Shown: positions 2,798 through 35,566 of the stretch, in pieces | Layout of the letters: every line of letters begins with the position of its first letter | Position numbering within the stretch: the stretch's first letter is position 1 | Virus record (IMG/VR): IMGVR_UViG_2713896902_000002 | Location: 1 to 36,980 of that record | Source: a virus | Taxonomy: Duplodnaviria; Heunggongvirae; Uroviricota; Caudoviricetes | Length of the DNA: 36,980 nucleotides | Direction: 5' to 3' (one strand) | The notes under the pieces: model-generated | The model's database searches: none | What the model was told of the DNA's origin: nothing | What the model saw: the letters and a program-made list of their open reading frames with translations, nothing else | Translations under genes and position numbers: made by a program

Positions 2798-2808
2798 AGG
2801 GCGTTGCG

Positions 2809-4200: not shown

Positions 4201-4205
4201 TCGGC

Positions 4206-7104: not shown

Positions 7105-8064
7105 ATGAAAATTTGTATCGACGACGGCTCCACCAACATCAAGCTGGCATGGACTGAGAACGGCGAACGCAGCAACGCCATCAGCCCGAACAGCTTCAAG
7201 TCGGAATGGTCTGCGCCGTTCGGTGGCACGCAGCCCGCGAACTACATGCTTGATGGCGTGCGCTATGGTTTTGATCCGGTCAGCGATCGCTTTGTCCAGA
7301 CGACCGACACGCAATACCAGTACAGCGATGTGAATGTAATCGCCATTCACCACGCGCTGGTCAAATCAGGCATCACACCACAGGAAGTGGATGTGGTTGT
7401 CACCCTGCCACTGAGCGAATATTTCGACACAAACGCACAGCCGGACATGGCCAACATCAACCGCAAAAAAGCGAACGTTATGCGCCCGGTGGAGTACCAG
7501 AACGGCAAAGCATTCACTATCCGTAACGTACGGGTTATGCCTGAATCCATTCCGGCTGGCTTTAAAGCACTGGCTGACATGAGTCCGTTTGAATCCCTGC
7601 TGATTGTGGATTTAGGCGGAACCACGCTGGATGTGGCAAAGGTTCAGGGACAACTGGCAGGTATCAGCCAGGTGTTTTGCGATCCACACGTAGGCGTTTC
7701 CCTGATGGCCGATGCCGTACTGTCGGTGATGGCCACTAACGGTATGCGTACCAGCCACCACATCGCCAATACCATTATCGAACATCGCCATGATGAAGCC
7801 TGGCTGCGCCAGCACATCCACAATGACGCGCATTACGACAACCTGATGGCGGTTATTCGTGAAAAGGAAGAAACACTGAAACAACGCGTGATCCGCGCGC
7901 TGGCGGTTTTTTCGGGTTACGGGCGGGTGATGGTTGTCGGTGGAGGGGCGGAGATTGTGGCACCCGCTATCCGCAAAGCCTGCGGAGTTAATGCGACTTT
8001 CATCGCGGACGGGGTGCCACAGTATGCTCTGGTTAATGGGCTGTACGCAATGGACAAGGAGTAA
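7105..8064 (+). CDS. parM: ParM/StbA-family actin-like segregation ATPase
   Basis: MKICIDDGSTNIKLAW...YQYSDVNVIAIHHAL...VMPESIPAGF...LIVDLGGTTLDV...VMVVGGGAEI tracks remembered plasmid R1 ParM (MLVFIDDGSTNIKLQW...WQYSDVNVVAVHHAL...VMPESIPAGY...LIIDLGGTTLDI...VMVIGGGAEI). Confidence 0.85.
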   Translation: MKICIDDGSTNIKLAWTENGERSNAISPNSFKSEWSAPFGGTQPANYMLDGVRYGFDPVSDRFVQTTDTQYQYSDVNVIAIHHALVKSGITPQEVDVVVTLPLSEYFDTNAQPDMANINRKKANVMRPVEYQNGKAFTIRNVRVMPESIPAGFKALADMSPFESLLIVDLGGTTLDVAKVQGQLAGISQVFCDPHVGVSLMADAVLSVMATNGMRTSHHIANTIIEHRHDEAWLRQHIHNDAHYDNLMAVIREKEETLKQRVIRALAVFSGYGRVMVVGGGAEIVAPAIRKACGVNATFIADGVPQYALVNGLYAMDKE

Positions 8065-8068
8065 ACCA

Positions 8069-8380
8069 ATGACGACACCAACCAGACGGATAAGTTTCTA
8101 TCTGAAGCCTGCGGCCGTCAAGAACGAAAGCGAAGCATGCGCCTGGCTGGACAGCCTTACACCAGAAGCCCGCAAAAGCGGCCAACGCGTGGCTTTTCTG
8201 GCCGGGCTGGCACTTCTGAAAATGGATCCAGCAGAGGCTTACCGACTGGCTGCATGGGCTGACGATGAGGCGTTATCTGTGACACAAACCAGGACAGAAC
8301 GCCCCGTGTCACAGCCAGTACCAACCGCACAGATAACCAGTCAGATGGCCGGAAATATCCGGGCGCTATTTCCTGAGTAA
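8069..8380 (+). CDS. parR: ParR-like ribbon-helix-helix centromere-binding protein
   Basis: RBS caaggag then ATG 8069; RRISFYLKPAAVKNE...LDSLTPEARKSGQRVAFLAGLALLKMDP...IRALFPE resembles remembered R1 ParR (RRTIAFKLNPDVNQ...LDSIPQGERSRLNRAALTAGLALYRQDP...LRSLFPKE). Confidence 0.7.
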   Translation: MTTPTRRISFYLKPAAVKNESEACAWLDSLTPEARKSGQRVAFLAGLALLKMDPAEAYRLAAWADDEALSVTQTRTERPVSQPVPTAQITSQMAGNIRALFPE

Positions 8381-8386
8381 GCAGAG

Positions 8387-8407
8387 CCAGGGCGGAAACC
8401 GCCCTGG
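8387..8407 (+). terminator. perfect stem-loop ccagggcgg-aaa-ccgccctgg after parR (no T-tract)
   Basis: 9-bp perfect stem directly after parR stop; no U-run, so intrinsic terminator function uncertain. Confidence 0.35.
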
Positions 8408-8561
8408 ATGTAATCAGCAGAGAGTGTGAACCCACACCACATCACGCTCCATGAAATTTGCATAATTTAACTATGATTTTTGCAACTCTCCATTCATAAT
8501 GTTAGTAATAATTAACCAATCTAAACCCATAAGAGCCACCATTGTTAAATTCAGGTGACGT

Positions 8562-9707
8562 ATGAACATTCAACAGCGTATAGCAGAACGCTTGGTTCAG
8601 GCCAGAAACGACGCAGGAATGAGTGCAAGCGCCGTCGCAGATGCGATCGGTGTTGTTCGTCAAACCTACAGTAAGTTTGAGCAGGCGCTAGGCGTCCCAA
8701 GCGTTACCCAACTCATCATGCTCTGCAAGATTTTCGATAAGCCTATCGGGTATTTTTATGAGCAAGATGATGGCGAGTTTCGTTTTGCAATGCGAGCAGA
8801 TAGTCCGGATTTGTTGGATGCCAAACTTCGCAATGAGTTGATTGAAAAGTTAAAAAATATCAATGCAATTGAGGAAGCTGCTGATGCTAATTTGCCAGAA
8901 GATCTTCCTAACTCAATGCCTATTTTTACCGCCAAAGCAGAAGATTTGCGAAGAGTCGAAGATAAGGCTATGGAAGAACGTTTCCGTCTTGGTATAGGAA
9001 ACGCTACTTGCGTTGGTGACATTGTAGCCATTTTGGAAGCATCGGATATTCGAGTAATCCCGTTCAATCGCGAAGAAACCGATAAAGGGATGGTATTCGG
9101 ATTTTCTGCGTTTTCGAACAAATACGGTACCGCGATTTATGTAAATGTTCACGATAGCATTTCAATAGAACGTCAAATCTTCAGTATTTGCCATGAATAT
9201 GCTCATCTTATCTTCCACCGTGATGAGTATGATGGCCCTGCTAAAAGCTATAAAACCAATGGCAAAGCAATTTCACCGGAAGAAAAAGTTGCTAATCACT
9301 TTGCTGCTTGTTTTTTGGTACCAGAAAGCGCATTGCGAAAACAATTCGTCATGCAAGGTGGTGGATGGGCGTATGAGGAAACCGTCCTTAGACTAAAAAG
9401 CATTTTCAGAGTATCAGCCACTTGCATCATCGATCGTCTTAGTAAATGTAATTTAATTAATCAACAAAACACTAGATACCTATGGGCAACCGCCAATCGT
9501 AAAGGTTGGAAGAGACACGAGCCAAATCCCATTAGGGAAGCACTAAATTATAAAGGCCGCCTAACCGTCTTATCGCGTAAAGCATGGGAAGCCGGTTCCG
9601 CGTCGGAAACCTTCATATCTGAACTTTTAGAATTAGACAGAAAAGCTCTCAGCAATCTTCTGGATGAATGGTACGACGAACAGGAGGCCGGAGAGGATGC
9701 CGTTTGA
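8562..9707 (+). CDS. Xre-family HTH fused to ImmA/IrrE-type (M78-like, COG2856) zinc metallopeptidase
   Basis: N-terminal HTH (MNIQQRIAERLVQARNDAGMSASAVADAIGVVRQTYSKFEQALGVPSVTQL); HEXXH in SICHEYAHLIFH; AT-rich upstream region, RBS aggtga; visibly AT-richer than flanking phage genes. Confidence 0.8.
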   Translation: MNIQQRIAERLVQARNDAGMSASAVADAIGVVRQTYSKFEQALGVPSVTQLIMLCKIFDKPIGYFYEQDDGEFRFAMRADSPDLLDAKLRNELIEKLKNINAIEEAADANLPEDLPNSMPIFTAKAEDLRRVEDKAMEERFRLGIGNATCVGDIVAILEASDIRVIPFNREETDKGMVFGFSAFSNKYGTAIYVNVHDSISIERQIFSICHEYAHLIFHRDEYDGPAKSYKTNGKAISPEEKVANHFAACFLVPESALRKQFVMQGGGWAYEETVLRLKSIFRVSATCIIDRLSKCNLINQQNTRYLWATANRKGWKRHEPNPIREALNYKGRLTVLSRKAWEAGSASETFISELLELDRKALSNLLDEWYDEQEAGEDAV

Positions 9708-10215
9708 ATGCCCCAGATGTGTTATCGATACGAATGTACTGTCTGATTTTTACGAAGGTAAATGCTTAGATCTTATCTGGCAAATTTACCCGGGTGGTGT
9801 GTGGATTGACCCCTATGTCTGCGAGGAACTAAAAGCTAAATACAATCTTGATGTTCAGGAACAGCTTACACGCCTGCAACTTCCATACAATTTCACCAAT
9901 GATTACGAACCTGAACATTTTATTGAAATGGCTGAGATAAAAAATCGCAGGAGAGCATTGAAGTATGCGGACATAAGCTGCGTTGTTAACGCGAGAATAC
10001 ATGATGCAACATGTCTTTCGGCGGATAATGCGGTTTATAAAACGTGTGCGGAACGCGGTGTAAAAGCCGCCCGCCACGGAGGGCTACTTCAAGAGGCTGT
10101 GCGCAGGAGACTTATCCACAAACAACAAGCCTTAATGCATTTCCAATTTTTCCTAGATCGTGGGTTAACGATGAAATCTTCTGTTCGAGAACAGATTCTT
10201 GCCAGTTTCGAATGA
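9697..10215 (+). CDS. PIN-like domain nuclease (predicted effector/toxin); alternative start 9664
   Basis: Start overlaps end of the HTH-peptidase gene (RBS caggagg); N-terminal VIDTNVL strand with Asp, later ADISCVVNARIHDATCLSADNAVY fitting the PIN D..IAA.A...L.T.D pattern. Confidence 0.55.
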   Translation: MPFECPRCVIDTNVLSDFYEGKCLDLIWQIYPGGVWIDPYVCEELKAKYNLDVQEQLTRLQLPYNFTNDYEPEHFIEMAEIKNRRRALKYADISCVVNARIHDATCLSADNAVYKTCAERGVKAARHGGLLQEAVRRRLIHKQQALMHFQFFLDRGLTMKSSVREQILASFE

Positions 10216-10248
10216 ATCCAAATCTCTCTTGCCATATTGGATTATATT

Positions 10249-10274
10249 GAGCCGCAATAGCGGCTCTTTTTTTT
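10249..10274 (+). terminator. rho-independent terminator (gagccgcaatagcggctc + T8)
   Basis: Hairpin followed by tttttttt directly after the PIN-like gene stop. Confidence 0.75.
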
Positions 10275-10290
10275 GTTTATTTATAACAAG

Positions 10291-10324
10291 TGCGCAATGC
10301 ACAATTGTGCACAAATTTGCACAA
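10291..10324. repeat. TGCACAA direct-repeat array at 10-bp phasing with embedded perfect palindrome TGCACAATTGTGCA
   Basis: tgcgcaa tgcacaattgtgcacaaatttgcacaa: heptamer at 10298, 10308, 10318 plus variant at 10291; palindrome 10298..10311. Confidence 0.5.
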
Positions 10325-10697
10325 TTTTTTTGAACGACTTTTTACCCTTCCAGCCCGCATGGTGGCTGGTTCCGTCAAGGATCCGTGCGTGCACAAAAAA
10401 AACGCATTTTTTCTGCGCGCAGGTGACGGGGGAACAGCCCGCGTTTCAGGGGGTAAATAGCATTCCCCGAACGATGTCGCAGAGACACAACAGAATGGCT
10501 GTATTTCTCACGCTGAGCATGAAAAAACGTGAGGGCTTTTGATTTGATGGGGTGACAGATAAGGCCGTCAGAATCGCACTGAGGCGGCGAGAACATGCAG
10601 TCAACACGGTAGGATTGCGTAAGAGCCTGACCGTCGATGATGGCAATAAGCTGGAAGACGTCGTGAAATTATTTGATTGATACAGGAGCTGGAGAGT

Positions 10698-10740
10698 CGG
10701 GGCATAAATTTTTTATGCCCCGGCGAGGCAGCAGACAAGC
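10698..10740. other. candidate cos region: 11-bp-stem hairpin followed by GGCGAGGC... 19-mer
   Basis: cggggcataaa-ttt-tttatgccccg hairpin, then ggcgaggcagcagacaagc whose first 8 nt match remembered P2/186 cohesive ends (GGCGAGGCGGGGAAAGCAC); located between hotspot and Q as in P2. Confidence 0.3.
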
Positions 10741-10824
10741 GAAGCGCGTCAGTGATACAGCACCTTGCCGACCATCATTCATGGGCGCAAAATACACACA
10801 AAGGAAATCAATGGAGGCTGTCTT

Positions 10825-11349
10825 ATGGTCATTAATTACAAGCAGTTAAGAGAAAAACGAGATCAGGTAAAGGAGAGTTTTCGCCGCAATGAAGACCTGA
10901 CCCCGCTTGTACGCATTGCCCAGGGAATTGTTGATGCTTATGAAATCTCGCTGGAGCTGCCATCACAGACCTGGACAGATAGCGACGGTAATCGCCAGCA
11001 TTACGTTTCATGCGGACTGGAAACAGCAGAAGGGTTTCGCAGAATGCCTTTATCCCAGATTCCTGCCGCTACCCCCAAAGCAAGAGGCAGCAATGATGAG
11101 CGAAAACTGACTTTCAGTATTGAAACAGTTGTTGACGACACACCTGGCGAAGTCGCATTCGTGCTCACTCCCCTTTCGATCACAATGTATAACGATGAAA
11201 TACAGGTTCGCGTTAATAATAATATCGTGCCACTTAAAGAAGGTAATTCCCCCTACACCACCGTTTGTGAAGCGATTCAATATTACGTTCTCTCTGAAAT
11301 TGATAATCTCAGACCTGACGGCACCCGGAAAATGGTTCAACTCTGGTAA
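10825..11349 (+). CDS. hypothetical protein (moron between candidate cos and portal gene); ORF extends to 10765
   Basis: RBS ggagg before ATG 10825; ORF convergent with Q and ending at a bidirectional terminator; no recognisable motifs. Confidence 0.5.
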   Translation: MVINYKQLREKRDQVKESFRRNEDLTPLVRIAQGIVDAYEISLELPSQTWTDSDGNRQHYVSCGLETAEGFRRMPLSQIPAATPKARGSNDERKLTFSIETVVDDTPGEVAFVLTPLSITMYNDEIQVRVNNNIVPLKEGNSPYTTVCEAIQYYVLSEIDNLRPDGTRKMVQLW

Positions 11350-26589: not shown

Positions 26590-27078
26590 TCAGAACAACC
26601 CTTTAACTGAACTGGCCGCGCTGTTAAGGGATGATGTCACCTTATCTTTGAAGCCTGACAGCATATCGCTGAACGATGAGGATTGCAGGCGTTCCCGTAA
26701 ATCCTCATCACAGCGTTCAAGGGTCAGGGAAAACTCTATCTTTTTCGCTTTCCCGTAGCGATCCAGTTCAGAGCGGGTCGTGCTCGTTTCGGTCAGAACA
26801 TACATACCGTAAATCTGCCCGACACCATCAATCAGAGGCCACGGGCGCCCCACATACGCCTGCGTGGTCAGCAGCGACAGCGACACTTCGCCGCCTGTAA
26901 TCTCAGGATAAAGCACGCCGGAAAGAACGATGCGATCATCACCTGCACCGATATACTGCCAGCTTGCTGAACGGTTAATGCGCTCGTTTTTCACATGCCG
27001 CCAGCTTTTGTTTTGCTGTAACTGCTGATGCGGCAATGTGCGCAACTCAAAAACAAACATGCCGTAGACCATCATCAT
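26590..27078 (-). CDS. U: tail protein U (P2 gpU family)
   Basis: MMMVYGMFVFELRTLPHQQLQQNKSWRH resembles remembered P2 gpU N-terminus (MMMVLGLFVF.LRT.PYQE.QR..SWRH). Confidence 0.85.
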   Translation of the reverse strand: MMMVYGMFVFELRTLPHQQLQQNKSWRHVKNERINRSASWQYIGAGDDRIVLSGVLYPEITGGEVSLSLLTTQAYVGRPWPLIDGVGQIYGMYVLTETSTTRSELDRYGKAKKIEFSLTLERCDEDLRERLQSSSFSDMLSGFKDKVTSSLNSAASSVKGLF

Positions 27079-27090
27079 GGCCAGGCCTCC

Positions 27091-29943
27091 TTACTCTTTA
27101 TCGTAAAAGCTGCCACGCCCGGCACGGGCGCGACGGTCCATTTCCGCCCTGACCATTTCCCCGACCAGTTTCGCCAGTTCGCGGGGATTCTGCGTAACAA
27201 CGTTATGCAGATGGACATGGATTTCACCACAAAATCCGGAGGCAACAGGCTCCCGGTTACGGGAAGTTGCAGGAACTGATGCCACAGGAGATCGTATGGC
27301 CTCCGCCACCGAACGGGAGCTGGCCGCAACAACAGGGACCAGCGCCGGAGGCAGCGGAGCCGGAACCACGGGTGTGATATTAATTGCGGGGGCGGGCTTA
27401 CTGACCTGCGCAATCTTCCGCTCCTGCCACTCCCCACGAACAGCAAGTGCGCGGGGCAAGCTCTTAAAGACAATATCGCCGGGGCCGATACGCTTTTTCG
27501 TCTCATCAACCAGCTTGCCTGTGTTATCTGCAATTTTGCTGAGCCTGCGCAGCGTGCCTGTATTATTGTCTGTGAGCGGCTTGCCCCCTTTGGGGTTATC
27601 GCCTTTGGGTTTATCCCCTTCAGGAGCTTTCCCCGCAGGCTTCGGCGGATTGATTTTCGCGATGTCTCCCTGAAACAGAGCAACTTTTTCCTGAAGAGCG
27701 GCCGCACGCTGTGCGTCTTCGATTTTCTTGCGCGCCCTTTCCGCTTCATCCGGAAGGACGCCAAGTTTTTCCAGTATCCATGCCAGCGTATCCAGCAGCA
27801 TTTTGGCAGGCGTCAGGACAAGCTGTAACGCACCTCCAAGAACATTGCCGAATACCTCGCCAGCACTGGTGCATTTATCCAGCGTTTCCTTGCTGGATTC
27901 CATCGGTGACAGCAGCGATGTAAACCAGTTAAAGACCTGAATCACGCCATCACGAACCAGTTCGAAAACAGGACCAAACCGTTCAAAGGTTTCACGCAAC
28001 GGAGCCAGCCGCTCCATAATCCCGTTGAACACCCCGATATAAAACGCCTTGATGGGTTCCCAGTATTTCCAGATGAGAACCGCCGCAGCCACAAACGCTG
28101 CAACAATCAACCCGACCGGGCTGAACAGTGCCCCGACAGCGCCCCCCAGTAACGAGATGGCCCCCGTCACCATTCCCCATAGCGCTGGCAGAACTCTGAC
28201 AGCATTCATTGAGCCGGTCAGAAGGGAAAAGCCAAGACGCAGTTTTGCCAGCGGGCCAGCAAGCACCCCAAGAGCAAGCGACAACGAGCCAACCGTTGCA
28301 GTCATTGCCAGCAGCGCACCGCCTGCTATCAGTAACTGGCGCGTCAGTGCCGGATGAGCCTGCGCCAGTGCCGTAACTCCGGCAACCACTTTTGTGAGCC
28401 ACTGCGTGACAGAACGCAGTGGACCGTCAATCAGATCCGCAATGCGGATACGCAGCCCTTCCCATGCACTGCCGAGTGATTTCAGGTCGCCATCAAGGTT
28501 ATTGGCCATAACCTTTGCCGTGCGTTCAGCCTCACCACGTGCCCCCTCAAGCTCTTTTCTCAGTTTGGGCAGGGAACCGTTACCCGCCGCATCAACGAGG
28601 GCCATAAGCGATGTAAAGGCCTCCTGTCCGGCGATGTCCTTAAAGAAAGATACCCGGTCAACTTCCCCGTATTTACGGGTGGCTTTATAAAGGTCGGCCA
28701 GCACATCCTCCATCGGGCGCATTTTGCCGTTCGCGTCAGAGACAGACACCCCCAGCTCTTTCAGGGCATCAGCCGCAACTTTTGGTGGCGATGCCAGACG
28801 AGCCAGGCTGGCACGCAACGCCGTACCTGCATCACTCCCCCTGATCCCCATATTCGCCAGCACGCCCGCCATCGCTGCGGCCTGCTCCAGCGATATTCCC
28901 AGCTTACCCGCCACCGGGCCTGCATATTTCATGGTTTCGCCCAGCGCGCGAAGGTCGGTGTTAGTACGGGTAAACGCCGCAGTAAGTGTGTCACCGACCC
29001 GGTCCATCTGGTCAGCAGAGAGGCCGAACTGCGTCAGGATATTGGAGCCTATATCAGCCGTCTCGCCGAGTTCGACGCCACCTGCCAGCGCCATATTAAG
29101 AACACCGGGCAATGCGGCCTGAATGGCCTGCGGAGTAAAACCAGCCATTGCCAGAAAGCTCTGCCCACTGGCGGCATCACTCGCAGTAAACTGCGTTTCA
29201 GAGCCGAGCTTTAGCGCCTGCTCACGCAGCGCCTTAAACTGCGGGCTGTTCTGGTCAATTCGCGTCAGCGCCTGCACACGGGACATCTCTTTCCCGAATC
29301 CGATAGCGGGCTGCAAAAAGCGCCCGGCAGCATAGCCGCCAGCCGCTGCCGCACCAGTTGCCAGCGCACAACCTGTTTTCAGTTTTCCCGCTGTTTCCTG
29401 CGCGCGTGAATACCGCTCACGCGCACGCGTTACACGCGCAAGCGCCTGCCGTTCGCGTTCAAGCTGGTTGTTGTACTGTTCGGTGCGTCTGATGGCCTGC
29501 TGGATGGTGTTATCGCTGCCTGTCAGGGAAATACCGTGGCGTTTCAGTTCTCCGCCAAGCTCCCGCATTTTCTGGATTTCCCGTGCGCGAGATTCATTCA
29601 GGCGTTCAAGCCGGGTACTTAACTGCTGCATCAGCCTTTGTTGTTTTTCGCTGAGCACAGTACCCGTGCGTTGTAACTGGTGAAGGGCGTTAAGCTGGCG
29701 TCGTGCTTTCACGATGCCGCCATCCGCTTTACTGACAGCATCGCGGGCACGCTCAAATGAACGCGCCTGACGCTCGAGATTTTTGATTGCCCCCTGCGTT
29801 CGCTGGATGGAGTCACCAAGTTGCCCCATCAGGCGGCGGACGTTTTCGGTGGGTCGGGTCAGCCTGTCTACAGCACTGAAGGCGACCCGAATGTCAAGAG
29901 TCTTCATTGTCTGCATTCCCACTGCGAAGTGCCGCCCGCTCAC
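27091..29943 (-). CDS. T: tail tape measure protein (P2 gpT family)
   Basis: 950-aa ORF, coiled-coil N-terminus, Ala/Gly-rich hydrophobic central region; between E and U. Confidence 0.9.
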   Translation of the reverse strand: MSGRHFAVGMQTMKTLDIRVAFSAVDRLTRPTENVRRLMGQLGDSIQRTQGAIKNLERQARSFERARDAVSKADGGIVKARRQLNALHQLQRTGTVLSEKQQRLMQQLSTRLERLNESRAREIQKMRELGGELKRHGISLTGSDNTIQQAIRRTEQYNNQLERERQALARVTRARERYSRAQETAGKLKTGCALATGAAAAGGYAAGRFLQPAIGFGKEMSRVQALTRIDQNSPQFKALREQALKLGSETQFTASDAASGQSFLAMAGFTPQAIQAALPGVLNMALAGGVELGETADIGSNILTQFGLSADQMDRVGDTLTAAFTRTNTDLRALGETMKYAGPVAGKLGISLEQAAAMAGVLANMGIRGSDAGTALRASLARLASPPKVAADALKELGVSVSDANGKMRPMEDVLADLYKATRKYGEVDRVSFFKDIAGQEAFTSLMALVDAAGNGSLPKLRKELEGARGEAERTAKVMANNLDGDLKSLGSAWEGLRIRIADLIDGPLRSVTQWLTKVVAGVTALAQAHPALTRQLLIAGGALLAMTATVGSLSLALGVLAGPLAKLRLGFSLLTGSMNAVRVLPALWGMVTGAISLLGGAVGALFSPVGLIVAAFVAAAVLIWKYWEPIKAFYIGVFNGIMERLAPLRETFERFGPVFELVRDGVIQVFNWFTSLLSPMESSKETLDKCTSAGEVFGNVLGGALQLVLTPAKMLLDTLAWILEKLGVLPDEAERARKKIEDAQRAAALQEKVALFQGDIAKINPPKPAGKAPEGDKPKGDNPKGGKPLTDNNTGTLRRLSKIADNTGKLVDETKKRIGPGDIVFKSLPRALAVRGEWQERKIAQVSKPAPAINITPVVPAPLPPALVPVVAASSRSVAEAIRSPVASVPATSRNREPVASGFCGEIHVHLHNVVTQNPRELAKLVGEMVRAEMDRRARAGRGSFYDKE

Positions 29944-30130
29944 GCCAGCTAACCACTTCGCCGGGCGTCATCATGAAGATTTCGGCGGGCGACCAGTTAA
30001 AAATAACGGCAATATCTGCCACAAAGTCTTCTATGTGCTCAAAGCACACAACCGTGATCAGGCTTCCGTCGCCTGTTCGTTCTTCCCGCCAGAGTCCGCA
30101 CCGCTCATAAAATTTACGGCAACCACACAT
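29894..30130 (-). CDS. E' extension frame of the E+E' tail chaperone (reached by programmed -1 frameshift from E)
   Basis: -1 frame ORF overlapping the 3' end of E and the 5' end of T, the conserved G/GT-like arrangement; exact slip site not determined. Confidence 0.5.
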   Translation of the reverse strand: MCGCRKFYERCGLWREERTGDGSLITVVCFEHIEDFVADIAVIFNWSPAEIFMMTPGEVVSWRERAALRSGNADNEDS

Positions 30131-30426
30131 AACTGAATAAAGTCACGGGATGCCATTTTTTTGAGGGTCACTTCATCCAGCCGCGGGGACGTCACGCGTG
30201 ACAGCAGCGTAAACATGGCTTCCGCTTTCAGATTCAGCACATCAGACAGCGACAAATCTCGCAGAGATCCAGCCTGCTCAATAGCCCCGGTGATCTCCAC
30301 ATACGTGATTTTTTCACCACCGCGCTCAACTGGCCGGGTAAGTTTTACGCCGCGCTCGCTGGTTTCTTTCGCAGTATCAGCAACCACCACAGCGTTTTCA
30401 GTATCGGTATTTTTCGTCTCTTTCAT
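30058..30426 (-). CDS. E: tail assembly chaperone E (P2 gpE family)
   Basis: 122-aa acidic ORF between FII and T. Confidence 0.7.
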   Translation of the reverse strand: MKETKNTDTENAVVVADTAKETSERGVKLTRPVERGGEKITYVEITGAIEQAGSLRDLSLSDVLNLKAEAMFTLLSRVTSPRLDEVTLKKMASRDFIQLCVVAVNFMSGADSGGKNEQATEA

Positions 30427-30480
30427 CAGAAAACTCCTTTCAGTCAGAGGCGACGCACTGCGCCGCCTGCATATTACTTA

Positions 30481-30993
30481 TCAGCCAAGCCCAAGCGCGG
30501 AGCGGATGCGGCCGGGTACAATGTCCTTGCCGTCCTTCCGGTAAATGAAGTTCAGCAGGTCAATTTCCCACACCGGGCGATCGTTAACGCTCAGTTTGTA
30601 GTAGGTGTTTTTGATGGCATAAGTGTGTGATGTGGCTTCGCCCTGTTTGGCTTCCCCCATATCAATTTCTGTCACACGCCCGCGCATCTCAATTTCATAC
30701 AGGTCGCTTTCTGCATCGGTGTAGTATTCCCCTGCAAAACGCAGCAATGTGCCGTCAATTGTTCCGCCATATTTAAGGAACAACGCACGAACGGCGCCCC
30801 CCATGACAAAACTCGCATCAAGCGCGGAATCGTCCAGGCCGAGGTCGATACTCACCGCCCCCATCATGCCGCCGCCACGATAGTTGTCGGTTTTACGTGT
30901 CAGTTTGGGTAAAGTAACGGACGTCACCTTTCCCACTTCATTTTCACCATCCACAAACAGCGTAAAAAAGCGAAGATGTTTTGGTACAGCCAT
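30481..30993 (-). CDS. FII: tail tube protein (P2 gpFII family)
   Basis: VTLPKLTRKTDNYRGGGMMGAVSIDLGLDD...LRFAGEY resembles remembered P2 FII (VTLPKLTRKLENYRGAGMNG..VDLGLDD...IRFAGSY). Confidence 0.9.
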   Translation of the reverse strand: MAVPKHLRFFTLFVDGENEVGKVTSVTLPKLTRKTDNYRGGGMMGAVSIDLGLDDSALDASFVMGGAVRALFLKYGGTIDGTLLRFAGEYYTDAESDLYEIEMRGRVTEIDMGEAKQGEATSHTYAIKNTYYKLSVNDRPVWEIDLLNFIYRKDGKDIVPGRIRSALGLG

Positions 30994-32177
30994 TAAGCAC
31001 CTCCAAGCACCGCAAATGCGGGGCCAAAGAACTCATCAGTGAACGCCTGGTAAAGCTCCATATCTTCCAGTGGAGGTACAGGCGTATATTTGTAGCGAAT
31101 ACGCACGCGCCCCTGCCGCAATTCTGTGGTGCTGTTATCCACGATGTCATACCAGCACGACGCGCCAATCAGTTTCCCGGCTGTGACCAGCGAATCCAGT
31201 TTTGCCCTGATGGCACTGACAACGTCCTTCACGTTCGCGGGCGTCAGTGGGCTGTCAATGGTTTCAAACTGCGCTTCCGCAATTGAGTCAGCCAGTATCT
31301 GCGCGGTGCGGGTATACACCTCAAAGATGTAGGCGTTCGTTTCCGGCGTACGGTTGCCCCAGAAGCGGAACCCGTTGCGGCGAATGATGGTGGTGATTTC
31401 CTTGTTGTTGAGGCTGTTGGCGTCACTGTCCTCAGCCTGTAACGACCAGAAAACATGTTTTGACATGCCCAGGACATTTTTAACCGGAACGTTGGACAGC
31501 GATTTGTGCCAGCCCTGCTCGTGGTCAATATACGCACGAAGGCCGCACGCATAGGCAGGCGCGGGGAAAACCTCATTCTCGCCACTTTTCGGGTTGTAAG
31601 CGATAAAATCCGGCCACAGGAGCATCACCTCGCGTTCGCTGAATTTTTCACGGTACGCAATGGCTTCAGCCATCGTGTTACAGCCATTACAGGAGGCATA
31701 CACAAACGCACGCAGTTTACCTGCAATCACGCACAGGGACTTTGTCACCGCCTCCGTGTCCAGCCCCGGCGCGGCCAGAATACGCGGACGGTATCCGATG
31801 CTTTCATCCTGCTCTGCAACAAGCAGCGCATACATCCCCGTATAGCTGCCGTCCTCTTCAGAACCACCGATAACCAGTTGATCCTGTGTTTTTCCGTCCT
31901 CTTCTTTGTGCTCAGCCACGCGAACCACAATCACTTTTGTGCTCACCTGGTCTGCAATGGGTTTCAGCGCACGGTACAGCGTCCCCGTTGTCCCGCATTT
32001 TCCCAGCACGTCATTGACGCGGGTCACTAATGCAGGCTTGTTCAGCGGGAACAGCTTCGCGTCCGCATCGTCCGCCGTTGCCACGATACCGATAACGCTG
32101 GAATCAACGTCGTTAATTGCTGTTACCAGGTCGGTACTTTCCGTAACGCGGGCGCCATGAAAGCGAGTTTCACTCAT
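30993..32177 (-). CDS. FI: tail sheath protein (P2 gpFI family)
   Basis: ...ADDADAKLFPLNKPAL...GTLYRALKPIADQ...YTPVPPLEDM resembles remembered P2 FI (...ASDADAETFPLNKPVL...GTLAASLQAIADQ...YTPVPPLENL). Confidence 0.9.
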   Translation of the reverse strand: MSETRFHGARVTESTDLVTAINDVDSSVIGIVATADDADAKLFPLNKPALVTRVNDVLGKCGTTGTLYRALKPIADQVSTKVIVVRVAEHKEEDGKTQDQLVIGGSEEDGSYTGMYALLVAEQDESIGYRPRILAAPGLDTEAVTKSLCVIAGKLRAFVYASCNGCNTMAEAIAYREKFSEREVMLLWPDFIAYNPKSGENEVFPAPAYACGLRAYIDHEQGWHKSLSNVPVKNVLGMSKHVFWSLQAEDSDANSLNNKEITTIIRRNGFRFWGNRTPETNAYIFEVYTRTAQILADSIAEAQFETIDSPLTPANVKDVVSAIRAKLDSLVTAGKLIGASCWYDIVDNSTTELRQGRVRIRYKYTPVPPLEDMELYQAFTDEFFGPAFAVLGGA

Positions 32178-32334
32178 AGCTTCAGCCCCTTGTATCCGTT
32201 AAATGATTCGGCAACAATCATCACCCACCACGCGCGTAATCTCACCCCTGCGCCGTTCTTGCCGCCCGGCGACAACAAAAAGCAGTAACCCCACCCTCAC
32301 ACACATGCGACCATGCTGTACAGGGAGGAAGCGG

Positions 32335-33444
32335 ATGATTGACACCACCATGCAACTGTTCAGCCAGAACACCGACCCCGTGAAAATGCCTGATTTTGAT
32401 ATTCTCGCGGAGGGAGAAACACTGTCCGGTGTGGCAGAGCGCCTGATGAGTCTGTCACTGACCGACAACAGGGGATTTGAAGCGGACCAGCTCACCATCA
32501 CGCTGGATGATGCGGATGGTCAGTTGCAGCTACCACCACGGGGTACACGCCTGACGGTTCTCATTGGCTGGAAAGGCGAACCGCTGACAGAAAAAGGCAC
32601 TTACATTGTTGATGAAATCGCTCACGAAGGACCGCCGGACAGGCTGACTGTTTCAGCCAGAAGCGCAGATTTTCGGGATGAGTTTAACGTCAAACGCGAA
32701 GTGTCCTGGCATGATGTGACCGTTGAACGCGTGGTGTCTGCAATTGCTCACCGATACGGCCTGAAACCGCAAATCAGCGAAATGCTGATGGATATTGAAA
32801 TCGACCACGCCGACCAGACCGAAGAAAGCGACATGTCCTTCCTGACGCGCATGGCGGAAATGCTGGGCGCAATCACCACGGTAAAAAGCGGTAATCTGTT
32901 ATTCATCATGCCAGGCGGTGGCGTGAACGCACAGGGCCAGCCGTTGCCATCGTTCGCCATCACACGCAGCAGCGGCGATCGCCATCAGTTTCGTATTGCT
33001 GACCGCGAGGCGTATACGGGTGTACGCGCCTACTGGCTTGATCTTAATTACGGGAAAAAGAAAAAAGTCAGCGTGAAACGCCGCAAATCGTCAAAACCGA
33101 AAAAGGAGAAAAGCAGCAGCCGGGAAGGCAACTATATGGAAGGTGCGGAAGGCAACGTGTTTGTGTTACGCAGGACATACCAGAATGAACAGTCTGCAAG
33201 ACGCGCGGCGGCGGCAAAGTGGCAGCAGCTACAACGCGGAGCCGCATCATTCTCCATCACGCTGGCGCGTGGCCGTGCAGAACTCTACCCCGAAATGCAT
33301 GGCACGGTGGCAGGCTTCAAAAGCGACATCGACAATCAGGACTGGATTATTGCAAAAGCCGAGCACACCATTGATAACAGTGGCTTTACCACGCAGCTTG
33401 AGCTTGAAGCAAAAATCCCGGAATGGATAGCAGAAACGGAGTAA
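32335..33444 (+). CDS. D: tail protein D (late gene D family); ORF opens at 32203
   Basis: RBS gggagg then ATG 32335; DNRGFEAD, GWKGEP, FRDEF motifs typical of gpD-family proteins. Confidence 0.85.
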   Translation: MIDTTMQLFSQNTDPVKMPDFDILAEGETLSGVAERLMSLSLTDNRGFEADQLTITLDDADGQLQLPPRGTRLTVLIGWKGEPLTEKGTYIVDEIAHEGPPDRLTVSARSADFRDEFNVKREVSWHDVTVERVVSAIAHRYGLKPQISEMLMDIEIDHADQTEESDMSFLTRMAEMLGAITTVKSGNLLFIMPGGGVNAQGQPLPSFAITRSSGDRHQFRIADREAYTGVRAYWLDLNYGKKKKVSVKRRKSSKPKKEKSSSREGNYMEGAEGNVFVLRRTYQNEQSARRAAAAKWQQLQRGAASFSITLARGRAELYPEMHGTVAGFKSDIDNQDWIIAKAEHTIDNSGFTTQLELEAKIPEWIAETE

Positions 33445-33531
33445 ACAAATTAACGCTCTTACAACACAAAACCCAATCAAACAACTCGCTCTATGCCAAG
33501 AGCGAGTACTGTTATAGATACCAATTGACGT

Positions 33532-33960
33532 CTATACATTTATCCCATCCTGCAAAATCTCAACCACTTCAAATTCCTCTGCAATCAATTCCATATCTTC
33601 AGAAAAATAGCCTTCTCGGACAAAAAATCGCTGATGCTCTTTCTGCCAGTATTCAAGGCTTAAATCTCCTTCGCCTTCTTTGCGGGCAAACACCTCAGTG
33701 ACATCGCAAAAACGCACTAATCGCATTGAAACTAACCGGATTACACAGACAGGAACATTCTGACCATCAAGAATAATGCTATAGTTTCCAATCTTAGGGG
33801 CAGATTCATCCTGCAAATAAGAGATTAAAGAACCACAGGAGGCTGTTTTAACCCCTTTTTTTATCAAGCCAGCAAGCTCGCTAGCCAACTCAGGACTGTC
33901 CCCCATTTGCCAAGCATCTGCACCAGGGTATTTTCTTTTTATTTCCTCAATCGTAACCAT
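33532..33960 (-). CDS. ASCH (PUA-like) domain protein, AT-rich moron; ORF extends to 33978
   Basis: C-terminal FARKEGEGDLSLEYWQKEHQRFFVREGYF pattern typical of ASCH; opposite strand to D/ogr; visibly AT-richer. Confidence 0.55.
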   Translation of the reverse strand: MVTIEEIKRKYPGADAWQMGDSPELASELAGLIKKGVKTASCGSLISYLQDESAPKIGNYSIILDGQNVPVCVIRLVSMRLVRFCDVTEVFARKEGEGDLSLEYWQKEHQRFFVREGYFSEDMELIAEEFEVVEILQDGINV

Positions 33961-34174
33961 TACCACCCTCTTACACATCTATGAAAAGAAATATTGTACT
34001 GTTTTAGCATGTTCCACACCTACATTACCAATAACGATTTTACCCAGATAACGAGGCCTGTCATTCGCTCAATGCAAACCATCAGATTTGGTTGTTCTAG
34101 TTACGTAAACTATTAGTTGGAGTCTGAGCTGGTGCAACTTAAAATAGCAATATTAGCATGTTAAGGGGGTTTCC

Positions 34175-34435
34175 ATGTTTCGTTGTCCGCTTTGTGGCGC
34201 ATCTGCCAGAATACGCACCAGTCGTTCGGAAAATGATTCAGATACCGTACGGAAAAAATATTACCAGTGTAACAACCTGGAATGCGGCGTATCTTTCACC
34301 ACACTGGAAGCCTTCGACAAATTCACATCCAGACACGCCCCCGGCGTCCACTCTTCAGAGGGCATCCCGTGGAATGAGCTGCCAGCTTCGCACAGGGGAA
34401 GCAGTCAGATGAGTTTGCCATTACCTCATAACTGA
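34175..34435 (+). CDS. ogr: Ogr/Delta-type zinc-finger late-gene activator
   Basis: MFRCPLCGASARIRTSR...KYYQCNNLECGVSFTTLEAF resembles remembered P2 Ogr (MFHCPLCQHAAHARTSR...RYHQCQNVNCSATFITYES); Cys4 arrangement; RBS aaggggg. Confidence 0.85.
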   Translation: MFRCPLCGASARIRTSRSENDSDTVRKKYYQCNNLECGVSFTTLEAFDKFTSRHAPGVHSSEGIPWNELPASHRGSSQMSLPLPHN

Positions 34436-34581: not shown

Positions 34582-34719
34582 ATGTCATCCAACAATATAT
34601 TTATTCTCATTATCTGCATAATTATAACCCTTTCCATATGGATATTATACGGTTCACTGTGCGAATTAAGAGCGCTCATGTGGGGAGACGAGTTTACAGA
34701 TTTTTTGCAATGCAAATAA
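34582..34719 (+). CDS. Hok/Gef-family-like small membrane toxin (45 aa)
   Basis: MSSNNIFILIICIIITLSIWILYGSLCELRALMWGDEFTDFLQCK: N-terminal TM helix then SLCELR and EF..FL, comparable to Hok KSLCEIR...EVAAFM; RBS gaggag. Confidence 0.4.
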   Translation: MSSNNIFILIICIIITLSIWILYGSLCELRALMWGDEFTDFLQCK

Positions 34720-34992
34720 TAAGAAAGCGAATAATATAAGGTTCGCTCTTACAATTGCATAATTTAACTAAAAAAAATCGCCATACTCCGCTATTTTCGC
34801 AACACGCGGGATTGTCGGGGTGTTCCAAAAGAGATAGATTACGCACGGGTGCCTTTCGGCTGATGGCTGGAGGGAATACCCGAAGGCCGGATGTGGAAAG
34901 GCCCCGGAAAACATCTCTGTTTAACCGAGGCCCTGACCATCTACCCTAAGCAAGTGATAGGTTAGCGCCTCCCCGAAAAAGGAGCAAGCGCT

Positions 34993-35133
34993 ATGTCGCA
35001 AAAATCGCTTACGGCCATCACGTTCTGCGTGACGGTAATCCTCATCATCTGGATGCTGCACGGTTCGCTATGTGAAATACGGATGAGCTTCTGGGGAGCG
35101 GAGTTTGCGGCGTTCTTACAGTGTAAGCAGTAA
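34993..35133 (+). CDS. Hok/Gef-family-like small membrane toxin (46 aa), paralog of 34582..34719
   Basis: MSQKSLTAITFCVTVILIIWMLHGSLCEIRMSFWGAEFAAFLQCKQ: exact SLCEIR motif; RBS aaggag; GC-rich structured leader upstream. Confidence 0.45.
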   Translation: MSQKSLTAITFCVTVILIIWMLHGSLCEIRMSFWGAEFAAFLQCKQ

Positions 35134-35269: not shown

Positions 35270-35566
35270 ATGAGTGAAATGGTATTTTGTCGCGGATGCG
35301 GCAAGGAAATACATAAAGATGCCACATCTTGCCCCAATTGTGGAGCACCTCAAAGAACAGCAAGTTCAAAAAGCAGAATAACAGCCGCACTACTGGCTTT
35401 CTTTTTAGGTGGTCTTGGCGCACACAAATTTTATTTAGGTAAAGTGGGGCAAGGATTTCTTTACCTTATTTTTTGCTGGACATTCATCCCGGCAATCGTG
35501 GCTTTTATTGAGTTTTTTATCTATCTGTGCACCTCAGATGAAGATTTCGCCCGCAAATACGGCTGA
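35270..35566 (+). CDS. zinc-ribbon plus TM2-domain membrane protein
   Basis: N-terminal CxxC-x-CPNC zinc ribbon (CRGCGKEIHKDATSCPNCG) followed by LLAFFLGGLGAHKFYLGK, a TM2-domain signature. Confidence 0.6.
   Translation: MSEMVFCRGCGKEIHKDATSCPNCGAPQRTASSKSRITAALLAFFLGGLGAHKFYLGKVGQGFLYLIFCWTFIPAIVAFIEFFIYLCTSDEDFARKYG

What the first reader, a model, noticed from the sequence alone, without database searches (positions are those of the whole stretch)
33532..33960. AT-rich ASCH-domain moron inserted antisense between D and ogr
Seen in sequence: a 142-aa minus-strand ORF with an ASCH/PUA-like C-terminal pattern, visibly AT-richer than the flanking late genes and opposite in orientation, in an interval that in P2 holds only the ogr promoter. 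Inference: horizontally acquired cargo; ASCH domains are RNA/modified-nucleotide binders, so a role in RNA-level defence or counter-defence is possible.
Basis: partly seen in the sequence, partly recalled or inferred. Interest (0 to 1): 0.4.

Follow-up and report, generated by a model that had tools for sequence, protein, structure and literature searches.

The report
Captured ASCH gene in P2-like prophage
A small gene for an ASCH-fold protein, most likely an enzyme that removes acyl groups from modified cytidine, sits as a self-contained passenger between two late genes of a P2-like prophage; it normally lives on enterobacterial chromosomes and plasmids, and its benefit to phage or host is unknown.

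Summary
A 142-aa minus-strand ORF (33532-33960) lies between gpD and ogr. It is a full-length ASCH protein: Pfam E=1.8e-22, PDB 1T62 E=2.8e-28, and an AF2 model (pLDDT 95) matching 3S9X, 1T62 and YqfB. Its GC is 0.42 against 0.54 in the late genes.

It is foreign cargo. P88-like relatives share the backbone up to 33452-33462 and again from 34108. P88 has only 44 bp there and P2 81 bp. Other relatives carry unrelated plus-strand genes at the same site.

The same arrangement was found only in Escherichia albertii contigs. The nearest relatives (82-88% aa) are stand-alone genes on Enterobacter, Klebsiella and Pantoea chromosomes and plasmids. About 77-81%-identical (nt) copies lie in two other phage cargo sites: a P2/186-like old/tin hotspot beside a retron, and a lambdoid nin region. 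The gene moves with about 115 bp of upstream and 70 bp of downstream sequence, and with no partner gene.

It belongs to the uncharacterised DUF984/YhfF subfamily. It keeps counterparts of YqfB's Lys, Thr/Ser and Glu but lacks its essential Arg.

Best guess: a stand-alone N4-acylcytidine-type amidohydrolase. A defence role is untested, and no defence model matched. This is a new member of a known kind, of modest interest.

The parts
33532..33960 (-). ASCH-domain CDS, 142 aa, of the DUF984/YhfF (COG4405) subfamily. The last 6 codons (QDGINV) are read-through of former 3' UTR after the ancestral stop codon was lost.
   Evidence: ORF. Pfam ASCH E=1.8e-22. PDB 1T62 E=2.8e-28 and 3S9X E=5.5e-19. AF2 pLDDT 94.9. 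Foldseek 3S9X/1T62 TM 0.82-0.84 and YqfB 9KYF E=1e-5. dN/dS 0.05-0.11 against relatives. 3' alignment shows the homologues' TAA aligned to CAG.
33966..33972 (-). Shine-Dalgarno sequence AAGAGGG, 5 nt upstream of the ATG at 33960.
   Evidence: Read from the sequence. The block AAGAAGGG is conserved in all contexts.
33993..33998 (-). Candidate -10 hexamer TACAAT, at the position of the conserved TATAAC of the cassette leader. The matching -35 (GGGACA in relatives) is degraded here.
   Evidence: Alignment A3 of 17 upstream regions. Pattern-level inference only.
34037..34064 (-). Alternative promoter-like site ATGACA-N16-TAAAAT (10 of 12 matches), specific to this copy.
   Evidence: Consensus scan. 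The number of sites found was no higher than in shuffles, so this is weak.
34055..34080 (-). Degenerate relic of the upstream palindrome 'A' (consensus GGTCCGCT-TTGAGCGAA-AGCGGACC). It marks the 5' edge of the sequence that travels with the gene.
   Evidence: Alignment A3. Repeat scan of the loci. No covariation support.
33484..33507 (-). Terminator-like hairpin ACTCGCTCT-TGGCAT-AGAGCGAGT followed by TGTTTGATTG. It is the homologue of the downstream palindrome 'B' (TGTCCGCT-TCTGGCACA-AAGCGGAC), with the stem changed on both arms and the loop kept.
   Evidence: Terminator scan. Folding and 3' alignment A4.
33453..34107 (.). The inserted cargo segment, about 655 bp, GC 0.409. P88-like backbone homology stops at 33452-33462 and resumes at 34108-34116. 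Similarity to the non-phage copies of the gene spans 33510-34011 by blastn, and to about 34080 by alignment.
   Evidence: blastn against loci. Junction alignments. GC.
34108..34174 (+). Right-junction module shared by all cargo-bearing P88-like relatives. It contains TTGGAG (34117-34122)-N17-TAAAAT (34140-34145), a possible separate promoter for ogr.
   Evidence: Junction alignment with L001-L003 and the sequence. Inference only: the site does not pass the scan tool's threshold.
32335..33444 (+). gpD (tail/late control D), the left flank.
   Evidence: Pfam Phage_GPD. The 369-aa gene call in the E. albertii contig. 94-97% identity to relatives.
34175..34435 (+). ogr late-gene activator, the right flank.
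   Evidence: Pfam Ogr_Delta E=3.7e-16. 85-92% identity to P88-like ogr.

Best explanation
The feature is a single-gene moron. It is a self-contained cassette of promoter region, Shine-Dalgarno, ASCH gene and hairpin terminator. It originated outside phages, on chromosomes or plasmids of Enterobacter-, Klebsiella- or Pantoea-like bacteria. It was recombined, antisense, into the gpD-ogr junction of a P88-like (Xuanwuvirus, P2 family) prophage, probably of Escherichia albertii. That junction is an occasional cargo site.

The product is a small stand-alone enzyme of the uncharacterised DUF984/YhfF branch of the ASCH superfamily. My committed mechanism is a hydrolase (amidohydrolase) that strips an acyl group from an N4-acylated cytidine-type substrate, either the free nucleoside or base, or ac4C in tRNA. 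The catalytic residues would be Lys38 and Ser41 of the ASCH octapeptide and Glu95 of the invariant EGEGD loop.

It would be transcribed on its own, probably in the lysogen, independently of and opposed to late D-to-ogr transcription.

Shown: the fold, the family, the cargo status, the insert boundaries, purifying selection, the lack of a partner gene, and recurrent capture by phages and plasmids.

Inferred: the substrate and chemistry, promoter use, timing of expression, and any fitness benefit.
For: Fold and family: Pfam ASCH at 80.4 bits. 1T62 E=2.8e-28 and 3S9X E=5.5e-19 over the full length. AF2 pLDDT 94.9. Foldseek to 3S9X and 1T62 at TM 0.82-0.84, then YqfB ac4C amidohydrolase 9KYF/9KYH at E=1e-5 and TM 0.78 normalised to the target.

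Enzyme-like conservation: in 52 members at 33-51% identity, K38, G96, E97 and F130 are invariant, and G36, E95, D99, W105 and H109 are at least 90% conserved. hhalign against YqfB pairs K38 with K21, S41 with T24 and E95 with E74. YqfB T24S keeps wild-type activity, while K21A and T24A are dead (PMC6972931). All 19 tested ASCH proteins deacetylate ac4C in tRNA in vitro (preprint 10.64898/2026.02.27.708502).

Cargo status: backbone homology breaks at 33452-33462 and 34108-34116. The empty site is 44 bp in P88 and 81 bp in P2. Other cargo genes occupy the same site in relatives. GC is 0.41 against 0.54. The arrangement was found only in E. albertii contigs.

Non-phage origin: the relatives at 82-88% are chromosomal or plasmid-borne. 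The flanking palindromes belong to a repeat family that is interspersed in those loci but absent from the rest of the window.

Functional gene: dN/dS is 0.05-0.11.

Stand-alone: no recurrent neighbour family was found.

Cassette parts: Shine-Dalgarno, -10 and hairpin followed by a T-rich tail.
Against: No member of the DUF984/YhfF subfamily has a demonstrated activity. None was found in the literature searches. The 2026 preprint explicitly left out octapeptide variants that lack the terminal Arg.

The counterpart of YqfB Arg26, the oxyanion hole whose Ala mutant is inactive, is Gly43 here and Ser or Gly across the family. The counterpart of His70 is Phe91.

The hhalign probability is only 45%, and I could not inspect the model's active-site geometry.

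The promoter calls are at pattern level and no better than shuffles. Expression in the lysogen is not shown.

dS of 0.9-1.6 to every sampled relative means the low dN/dS mostly reflects history before the capture.
Confidence: 0.45

Rival explanations
1. It is an anti-phage defence or counter-defence factor. The ASCH protein would read or erase a base modification on incoming phage nucleic acid or nucleotides, or on host tRNA. That would protect the lysogen from superinfection, or protect the phage from a host system such as an acetyltransferase toxin.
For: It sits in a cargo site of a phage family whose hotspots are rich in defence genes (PMC9122126, PMC13586616 and 10.1101/2024.10.15.618418). 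An independent copy lies in the old/tin hotspot of an E. coli P2/186-like prophage, beside a retron Ec67 reverse transcriptase and a restriction endonuclease. Three further copies lie in lambdoid phage contigs, two of them shown to be between the O/P genes and DUF1367/Q. ASCH and EVE domains accompany GNAT/PIN and type I R-M operons (PMC7641849).
Against: There was no PADLOC hit even at E<=1 and no PHROG hit. There is no effector domain and no conserved partner. Most relatives are in ordinary chromosomal or plasmid settings. GNAT neighbours are not enriched.
Confidence: 0.15
2. It is a metal-dependent single-strand RNA ribonuclease like Zymomonas ZmASCH. The acidic EGEGD loop would bind the metal, and the protein would act on host or phage transcripts.
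For: ZmASCH structures are significant structural neighbours at E about 7e-4. ZmASCH has reported ssRNA RNase activity (PMC5615036). An invariant acidic cluster, E95-G-E97-G-D99, is present.
Against: Structural similarity to ZmASCH is weak (TM 0.47-0.54, 12-16% identity), clearly below that to YqfB. No toxicity-control partner such as an antitoxin travels with the gene. ZmASCH itself removes ac4C from tRNA in vitro in the 2026 preprint.
Confidence: 0.1
3. It is a selectively neutral hitch-hiker. The gene was dragged in by illegitimate or flank-mediated recombination and does nothing for this phage or lysogen. It may be silent.
For: The arrangement is rare: 3 contigs, one cluster of 2 member sequences. 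The conserved -35 is degraded in this copy. The stop codon has been lost, giving a 6-aa tail. Divergence from all relatives is old, so purifying selection within the phage cannot be shown.
Against: The ORF is intact, with an intact Shine-Dalgarno, a good -10 (TACAAT) and a compensated terminator hairpin. P2-like genomes are packaging-limited and rarely keep junk (argued in PMC13586616). The same gene was taken up independently at three or more phage sites and on conjugative plasmids.
Confidence: 0.2

Closest known systems
EF3133 of Enterococcus faecalis (PDB 1T62, former Pfam DUF984) and the Lactobacillus crispatus ASCH protein (PDB 3S9X): the YhfF/COG4405-type ASCH proteins
   Same: Homology runs over the full length (E=2.8e-28 and 5.5e-19). 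The octapeptide is of the same type, G-x-K-x-A-[ST]-C-[SG]. The EGEGD...YW..H block is shared. Size and fold match (TM 0.82-0.84).
   Different: Sequence identity is 36-38% in the Foldseek alignments. Those proteins are chromosomal structural-genomics targets with no known function. This copy is phage-borne and has a 6-aa C-terminal read-through tail.
E. coli YqfB, the N4-acetylcytidine amidohydrolase (PDB 9KYF/9KYH; PMC6972931)
   Same: The ASCH beta-barrel fold is shared (Foldseek E=1e-5, TM 0.78 normalised to YqfB). The Lys, Thr/Ser and Glu positions align: K38/K21, S41/T24 and E95/E74.
   Different: Identity is only 18-19%. The protein is 142 aa against 103 aa, with an extra N-terminal helix and strand and an EGEGD insertion. 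It lacks the essential Arg26 (Gly43 here) and His70 (Phe91 here). Its activity is untested.
[quoted passage not shown] (10.1101/2024.10.15.618418)
   Same: It is a non-essential, compositionally deviant gene at a junction that is empty in relatives. Alternative cargos occupy the same site in other prophages.
   Different: The exact site is gpD/ogr in P88-like phages. The cargo is a single metabolic-type enzyme gene with no recognisable defence signature. It is antisense, whereas the alternative cargos at this site are co-directional with D and ogr.
The resident chromosomal ASCH paralogue next to aceK in Salmonella, and an ASCH paralogue annotated in about 495 E. coli genomes
   Same: Same subfamily. 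The aceK-adjacent copy is about 50% identical in amino acids. The E. coli paralogue matches a 131-bp stretch at about 72-73% nt and is annotated 'ASCH domain-containing protein'.
   Different: These are vertically inherited chromosomal genes, much more distant than the 82-88% clade from which the prophage copy derives. I did not show that the E. coli and aceK-adjacent genes are the same locus.

Membership tests
ASCH domain superfamily (Pfam PF04266, PUA-like beta-barrel) | Profile match above the curated threshold | tested here: met
   80.4 bits against a cut-off of 21.2, E=1.8e-22, residues 27-134 matching profile positions 5-103 of 103.
ASCH domain superfamily (Pfam PF04266, PUA-like beta-barrel) | ASCH/PUA-like beta-barrel fold | tested here: met
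   AF2 model pLDDT 94.9, pTM 0.87. The top Foldseek PDB hits are all ASCH proteins: 3S9X, 1T62, 9KYF, 2Z0T and 5GUS.
ASCH domain superfamily (Pfam PF04266, PUA-like beta-barrel) | ASCH octapeptide GxKxx[E/T/S]xR (as defined in 10.64898/2026.02.27.708502) | tested here: inconclusive
   G36-V-K38-T-A-S41-C-G43. The Gly, Lys and Ser positions are present, but the terminal Arg is replaced by Gly, and by Ser or Gly across the subfamily. The preprint notes such non-R variants exist in bacteria and did not test them.
DUF984 / YhfF (COG4405) subfamily of ASCH | Full-length homology to EF3133 (1T62) and the conserved EGEGD-x-SL-x-YW-x-x-H block | tested here: met
   1T62 E=2.8e-28 over residues 14-136. 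E95, G96, E97, D99, W105 and H109 are invariant or at least 90% conserved in 52 diverse members. Sources label close relatives 'uncharacterized protein YhfF'.
YqfB-type N4-acetylcytidine amidohydrolases | Catalytic Lys21, Thr24 (Ser tolerated) and Glu74 | tested here: met
   The hhalign alignment pairs K38, S41 and E95 with them (probability only 45%). The roles of these residues come from PMC6972931.
YqfB-type N4-acetylcytidine amidohydrolases | Arg26 oxyanion hole (R26A is inactive) and His70 | tested here: not met
   Arg26 aligns to Gly43 and His70 aligns to Phe91. The protein is therefore not filed as a YqfB-type member.
YqfB-type N4-acetylcytidine amidohydrolases | Hydrolysis of ac4C or N4-acylcytosines | not testable with these tools
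   Needs an enzyme assay.
Phage moron (extra gene between genes that are adjacent in relatives, with its own transcription signals and deviant composition) | Inserted between genes that are adjacent in related phages | tested here: met
   The D-to-ogr gap is 44 bp in P88 and 81 bp in P2. Most P88-like E. coli prophages are empty at this site.
Phage moron (extra gene between genes that are adjacent in relatives, with its own transcription signals and deviant composition) | Deviant base composition | tested here: met
   GC 0.417 against 0.540 +/- 0.051. GC3 0.378 against 0.595.
Phage moron (extra gene between genes that are adjacent in relatives, with its own transcription signals and deviant composition) | Own promoter and terminator | tested here: inconclusive
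   The hairpin with a T-rich tail at 33484-33507 is convincing at pattern level, and the hairpin is conserved across contexts. The promoter candidates are consensus matches only.
Phage moron (extra gene between genes that are adjacent in relatives, with its own transcription signals and deviant composition) | Expression from the prophage | not testable with these tools
   Needs transcript data from a lysogen.
Known anti-phage defence systems (PADLOC-DB v2) | Match to any defence-protein model | tested here: not met
   0 families at E<=1.
REP/REPIN-type interspersed palindromic repeats (for the flanking hairpins) | About 25-nt palindromic units occurring as inverted doublets in many intergenic copies | tested here: inconclusive
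   B is approximately the reverse complement of A. B-17 nt-A doublets at a fixed 42-bp offset occur 2-8 times per 8-12 kb in the chromosomal loci. Genome-wide copy number and an associated RAYT transposase were not examined. The label is mine.

The most novel reading that the evidence does not exclude
The YhfF-type ASCH cassette is not a random passenger. It would be a recurrently recruited single-gene phage accessory module, seen at three different hotspots in P2-like and lambdoid phages and on conjugative plasmids. Its product would erase an N4-acyl mark on tRNA or on nucleotides. That would make it a new one-protein layer of phage-host or phage-phage conflict: for example, reprogramming decoding by tRNA-Met ac4C34 in the lysogen, undoing an acetyltransferase-based toxin or defence, or stripping a protective modification from a superinfecting phage. 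A side possibility is that the REP-like palindromes flanking the cassette take part in moving such single genes into phage hotspots.
Probability: 0.12. Interest if true: 0.7.

Novelty: new member of a known kind. Interest (0 to 1): 0.3.

Why it matters
P2-family hotspots have been productive places to find new defence systems, and most of their cargo is still unannotated. This case shows a cargo gene of a different flavour: a tiny, partner-less ASCH enzyme from a subfamily with two crystal structures and no known activity.

Three different temperate-phage sites and several plasmids have picked it up independently. If its substrate is ac4C or a related acylated base, it would link the newly proposed ASCH 'eraser' chemistry to mobile elements, and it would give a simple system in which to test what that chemistry is for.

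If it is merely a passenger, it is still a clean example of chromosome-to-phage capture. The insert boundaries can be defined, and relics of the source's repeats remain at both ends. Either way the practical value is modest. It adds one well-delimited candidate to the list of hotspot cargo worth cloning.

Tried and rejected
1. A cis-regulatory RNA or riboswitch in the conserved ~115-nt leader. There was no Rfam hit in the window or in three loci. RNAalifold predicted zero consensus pairs. The upstream palindrome showed no covariation beyond shuffles, 63.7% paired against 62.8%. Rejected.

2. A conserved partner gene or two-gene system. The 'restriction endonuclease' next to the E. coli copy has no relative next to other copies. 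A census of 105 neighbouring ORFs from 29 loci found no recurrent Pfam family, with a maximum of 4 for MFS. Rejected.

3. Association with GNAT acetyltransferases, prompted by Bell et al. (PMC7641849) and by two loci. GNATs are not enriched in the census. Rejected as evidence.

4. Known defence, phage or NCBI family labels. PADLOC, PHROGs and NCBIfam were all empty.

5. An Ogr-type late promoter (the TGT-N12-ACA dyad, recalled from my own knowledge) upstream of the ASCH gene. There is none between 33961 and 34175. The motif is not enriched in the window anyway, with 10 found against 8.65 expected. This is a weak negative.

6. AF2 with the shallow alignment of 82-99% relatives gave an unusable model, pLDDT 42. 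It was replaced by the diverse alignment A1, pLDDT 94.9.

7. YhfF-type relatives among known viral proteins. BFVD gave only distant ASCH folds at 17% identity or less. The tblastn hits listed in the 'phages' collection are 35-50% identical; several of those records are large Salmonella contigs or small unannotated fragments, and I take them as not informative about phage carriage.
Full report
**1. What is at the coordinates**

The window is a P2-family prophage. It carries portal, terminase, capsid, tail and replication gene A homologues.

Around the finding the order is as follows:
- tail sheath, 30993-32177, minus strand
- gpD, 32335-33444, plus strand, Pfam Phage_GPD
- the ORF in question, 33532-33960, minus strand
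- ogr, 34175-34435, plus strand, Pfam Ogr_Delta, E=3.7e-16

The ORF is 142 aa from the ATG at 33960. That ATG is preceded by AAGAGGG at a 5-nt distance. It coincides with the start of all homologues and with the 142-aa E. albertii annotation. The in-frame ATG at 33978 listed by the ORF tool is probably not used.

**2. It is an ASCH protein**

- Pfam ASCH (PF04266) matches residues 27-134 at E=1.8e-22, 80.4 bits against a cut-off of 21.2.
- phmmer against PDB sequences finds EF3133 (1T62, E=2.8e-28) and an 'ASCH domain' protein (3S9X, E=5.5e-19) over the whole length.
- An AlphaFold2 model built on a shallow alignment failed, with pLDDT 42.
- A model built on 52 diverse family members reached pLDDT 94.9 and pTM 0.87.
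- Foldseek places that model next to 3S9X and 1T62 (TM 0.82-0.84). Next come E. coli YqfB, the N4-acetylcytidine amidohydrolase (9KYF/9KYH, E=1e-5, TM 0.78 normalised to YqfB), then PH0355 and the Zymomonas ASCH RNase.

One correction is needed: the domain is the whole protein, not a C-terminal part.

**3. It is foreign to the phage backbone**

Related Xuanwuvirus (P88-like) phages and about 1100 E. coli genomes match the window only up to 33452-33462, just past the gpD stop, and again from 34108-34116.

None of 5426 E. coli genomes and none of 50,697 phage records covers the interior.

- In P88 the gpD stop and the ogr ATG are 44 bp apart.
- In P2 they are 81 bp apart, holding only the annotated ogr -35 and -10.
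- Most P88-like E. coli prophages have the empty form.
- A minority carry other, unrelated plus-strand ORFs of 132, 201 or 221 aa with no Pfam match.

The cargo-bearing forms, including this window, share a right-hand junction module (34108-34174) that is absent from the empty form. It contains TTGGAG-N17-TAAAAT, which could re-supply ogr with a promoter (my inference).

The insert (33453-34107) has GC 0.409, against 0.540 in the late genes. The gene's GC3 is 0.378, against 0.595 in gpD.

[quoted passage not shown] The location as such is therefore not new.

**4. Where the gene comes from**

The only 99%-identical protein is annotated from Escherichia albertii. Its contigs show the same order of genes, D, ASCH, ogr, hok, TM2 and flk, so the window is probably E. 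albertii.

Every other close relative (82-88% aa, 136 aa) is a stand-alone gene in non-phage surroundings:
- the Enterobacter ludwigii and Klebsiella aerogenes chromosomes
- 22 species representatives, including Pluralibacter, Erwinia, Yersinia, Pantoea and Chimaeribacter, none with gpD or ogr nearby
- plasmids: Pantoea megaplasmids, a conjugative IncFII plasmid of K. pneumoniae where the gene lies next to IS903B, and a conjugative Vibrio parahaemolyticus plasmid

dN/dS against these copies is 0.05-0.11, with dS of 0.9-1.6. The gene has therefore been under strong purifying selection, but no sampled lineage is a recent donor.

**5. It has been captured by phages more than once**

- In E. coli strain 2547 and three other genomes, a copy 77% identical in nucleotides lies in the classical old/tin hotspot of a different P2/186-like prophage. 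It sits between the replication endonuclease/DinI and the portal gene, next to a retron Ec67 reverse transcriptase and a restriction endonuclease.
- In two IMG/VR contigs of 46 and 56 kb, an 81%-identical copy lies in a lambdoid phage between the O/P replication genes and DUF1367/Q, the position of the nin region.
- A third IMG/VR contig also has DUF1367 downstream of the gene.

The sites, the flanks and the divergence all differ, so these are independent acquisitions.

**6. What moves is a cassette**

Alignments of 17 copies from all these contexts show that about 115 bp upstream and about 70 bp downstream are conserved with the gene. Conservation stops there.

Upstream, in order:
- a palindrome, 'A': GGTCCGCT-TTGAGCGAA-AGCGGACC
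- a -35-like GGGACA and a -10 TATAAC, 17 bp apart
- the Shine-Dalgarno sequence

Downstream there is a second palindrome, 'B': TGTCCGCT-TCTGGCACA-AAGCGGAC.

In this window:
- A is degenerate (34055-34080).
- The -10 reads TACAAT (33993-33998).
- The -35 is lost.
- A copy-specific ATGACA-N16-TAAAAT lies further upstream (34037-34064).
- B has become ACTCGCTCT-TGGCAT-AGAGCGAGT (33484-33507). Both stem arms have changed and the loop is kept. It is followed by a T-rich tail, and the scan tool calls it a terminator.
- The ancestral TAA stop has become CAG, adding six residues.

B is roughly the reverse complement of A. B-17 nt-A doublets recur 2-8 times per 8-12 kb in the chromosomal loci. None occurs elsewhere in the window within 6 mismatches or fewer.

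I read A and B as REP/REPIN-like repeats of the source genomes, carried along as relics. That supports a chromosome-to-phage direction of transfer. The label is mine and unverified.

The exact A core occurs in 104 IMG/VR stretches, of which 80 were fetched. In 4 of those 80 it lies in or next to the gpA-portal region of a P2-like phage.

I tested whether the leader is a structured RNA and found no support.

**7. What the protein probably does**

The family is large: 2133 clusters at 50% identity with E<=1e-3. I found no paper reporting an activity for the DUF984/YhfF/EF3133 branch.

Across 52 members at 33-51% identity, K38, G96, E97 and F130 are invariant. G36, E95, D99, W105 and H109 are nearly so. 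That pattern fits an active site better than a binding surface.

A profile-to-sequence comparison with YqfB aligns the following pairs (E=2e-4, probability 45%). The YqfB sequence was verified against 1TE7 and 9KYF.
- K38 with K21
- S41 with T24
- E95 with E74
- G43 with R26

Evidence from YqfB and other ASCH proteins:
- In YqfB, the K21A, T24A and R26A mutants are inactive, E74A is 100-1000-fold down, and T24S is as active as wild type. 1T62 was good enough to serve as the modelling template (PMC6972931).
- A 2026 preprint reports that all 19 tested ASCH proteins remove ac4C from tRNA in vitro. Lys and Glu/Thr of the octapeptide are essential, and the need for the terminal Arg is protein-specific. 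Bacterial variants lacking that Arg were not tested (10.64898/2026.02.27.708502).

I therefore commit to an N4-acylcytidine-type amidohydrolase as the most likely chemistry, at about 40%. I do not file the protein as a YqfB-type enzyme, because the Arg26 and His70 features are not met.

**8. Is it a defence gene?**

Nothing direct says so. There was no PADLOC, PHROG or NCBIfam hit. No partner gene was found. No GNAT enrichment was found.

The association evidence is recurrent residence in phage cargo sites, once beside a retron and a nuclease. That is suggestive but weak, because the gene is equally at home on chromosomes and plasmids.

**9. How the cassette would behave in this prophage (inference)**

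It points against gpD and ogr. Late transcription leaving gpD would therefore be antisense to it. The hairpin at 33484-33507 has its T-rich tail on the minus strand only, so it should stop the ASCH transcript better than the gpD transcript.

No TGT-N12-ACA dyad of the kind I recall at Ogr-dependent late promoters precedes the gene. With its own sigma-70-like signals, the simplest expectation is low constitutive expression in the lysogen, as for classical morons. This has not been shown.

**10. Verdict**

The 'horizontally acquired ASCH moron' reading is supported. The 'RNA-level defence or counter-defence' reading is untested and not favoured.

It is a new member of known kinds, both P2-family hotspot cargo and the ASCH superfamily. 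It has one mildly unusual trait: the same partner-less cassette has been recruited repeatedly by unrelated temperate phages and plasmids. Interest is modest.

Noticed in passing
window 34582-34719 (+), 34993-35133 (+), 34847-35006 (+): Two Hok/Gef-type toxin ORFs lie just downstream of ogr. The first has a Pfam HOK_GEF match at E=0.0012. The second is 97-98% identical to the hok/MokW-like gene of P88-like phages. A sok-like antisense RNA matches at 43.5 bits, below Rfam's gathering score of 59. P88-like relatives have only one hok.
   Followed up: partly
window 35270-35566 (+): A 98-aa protein with a zinc ribbon and a TM2 domain lies between the hok genes and flk. Whether it belongs to the prophage or to the host was not determined.
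   Followed up: no
window 7105-11349: The classical old/tin hotspot (between replication gene A and the portal gene) carries its own cargo. There is a ParM/StbA-like actin ATPase (7105-8064), an HTH-XRE plus M78 (ImmA/IrrE) peptidase protein (8562-9707) overlapping a PIN-domain protein (9664-10215), and a 194-aa ORF with no Pfam match (10765-11349). The peptidase-PIN pair looks like a toxin-antitoxin or defence module.
   Followed up: no
L006, L008, L021, L023, L024, L032 and L034 (several positions each); relics at window 33484-33507 and 34055-34080: A family of ~25-nt palindromes occurs as B-17 nt-A inverted doublets between small accessory genes in Enterobacter, Pantoea, Erwinia and Klebsiella loci, and flanks the ASCH cassette. 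A is GGTCCGCT-TTGAGCGAA-AGCGGACC and B is TGTCCGCT-TCTGGCACA-AAGCGGAC. The A core also occurs in 104 IMG/VR stretches, some of them in or next to the gpA-portal region of P2-like phages. They are possibly REP/REPIN elements. There was no Rfam match.
   Followed up: partly
L001 1816-2214, L002 1798-2403, L003 1840-2505: Three unrelated hypothetical proteins of 132, 201 and 221 aa, with no Pfam match, occupy the same gpD-ogr site in E. coli P88-like prophages. These include O157:H7 and O55:H7 strains. All are co-directional with D and ogr.
   Followed up: partly
L044 (E. coli strain 2547, NZ_CP072980.1) 2244-6414: A P2/186-like prophage hotspot holds, in a row, a retron Ec67-family reverse transcriptase/endonuclease, a 320-aa 'restriction endonuclease' and a 77%-identical copy of the ASCH cassette. 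An A-type palindrome lies between the first two genes.
   Followed up: partly
window 26590-33444: The tail genes from the sheath (30993-32177) to the 26590-27078 ORF read on the minus strand while gpD reads on the plus strand. gpD and ogr therefore form a unit divergent from the sheath gene, unlike the co-linear F-E-T-U-D-ogr order of P2. P88 has the same arrangement.
   Followed up: no
L041 (phage P2, NC_001895) 30316-30645: P2's own Orf91, just after gene A, is annotated as a DUF3850 protein. From memory this is a PUA/ASCH-like family, so P2-type phages may commonly carry small PUA-like proteins. I did not verify this, and no equivalent was seen after gene A in this window.
   Followed up: no
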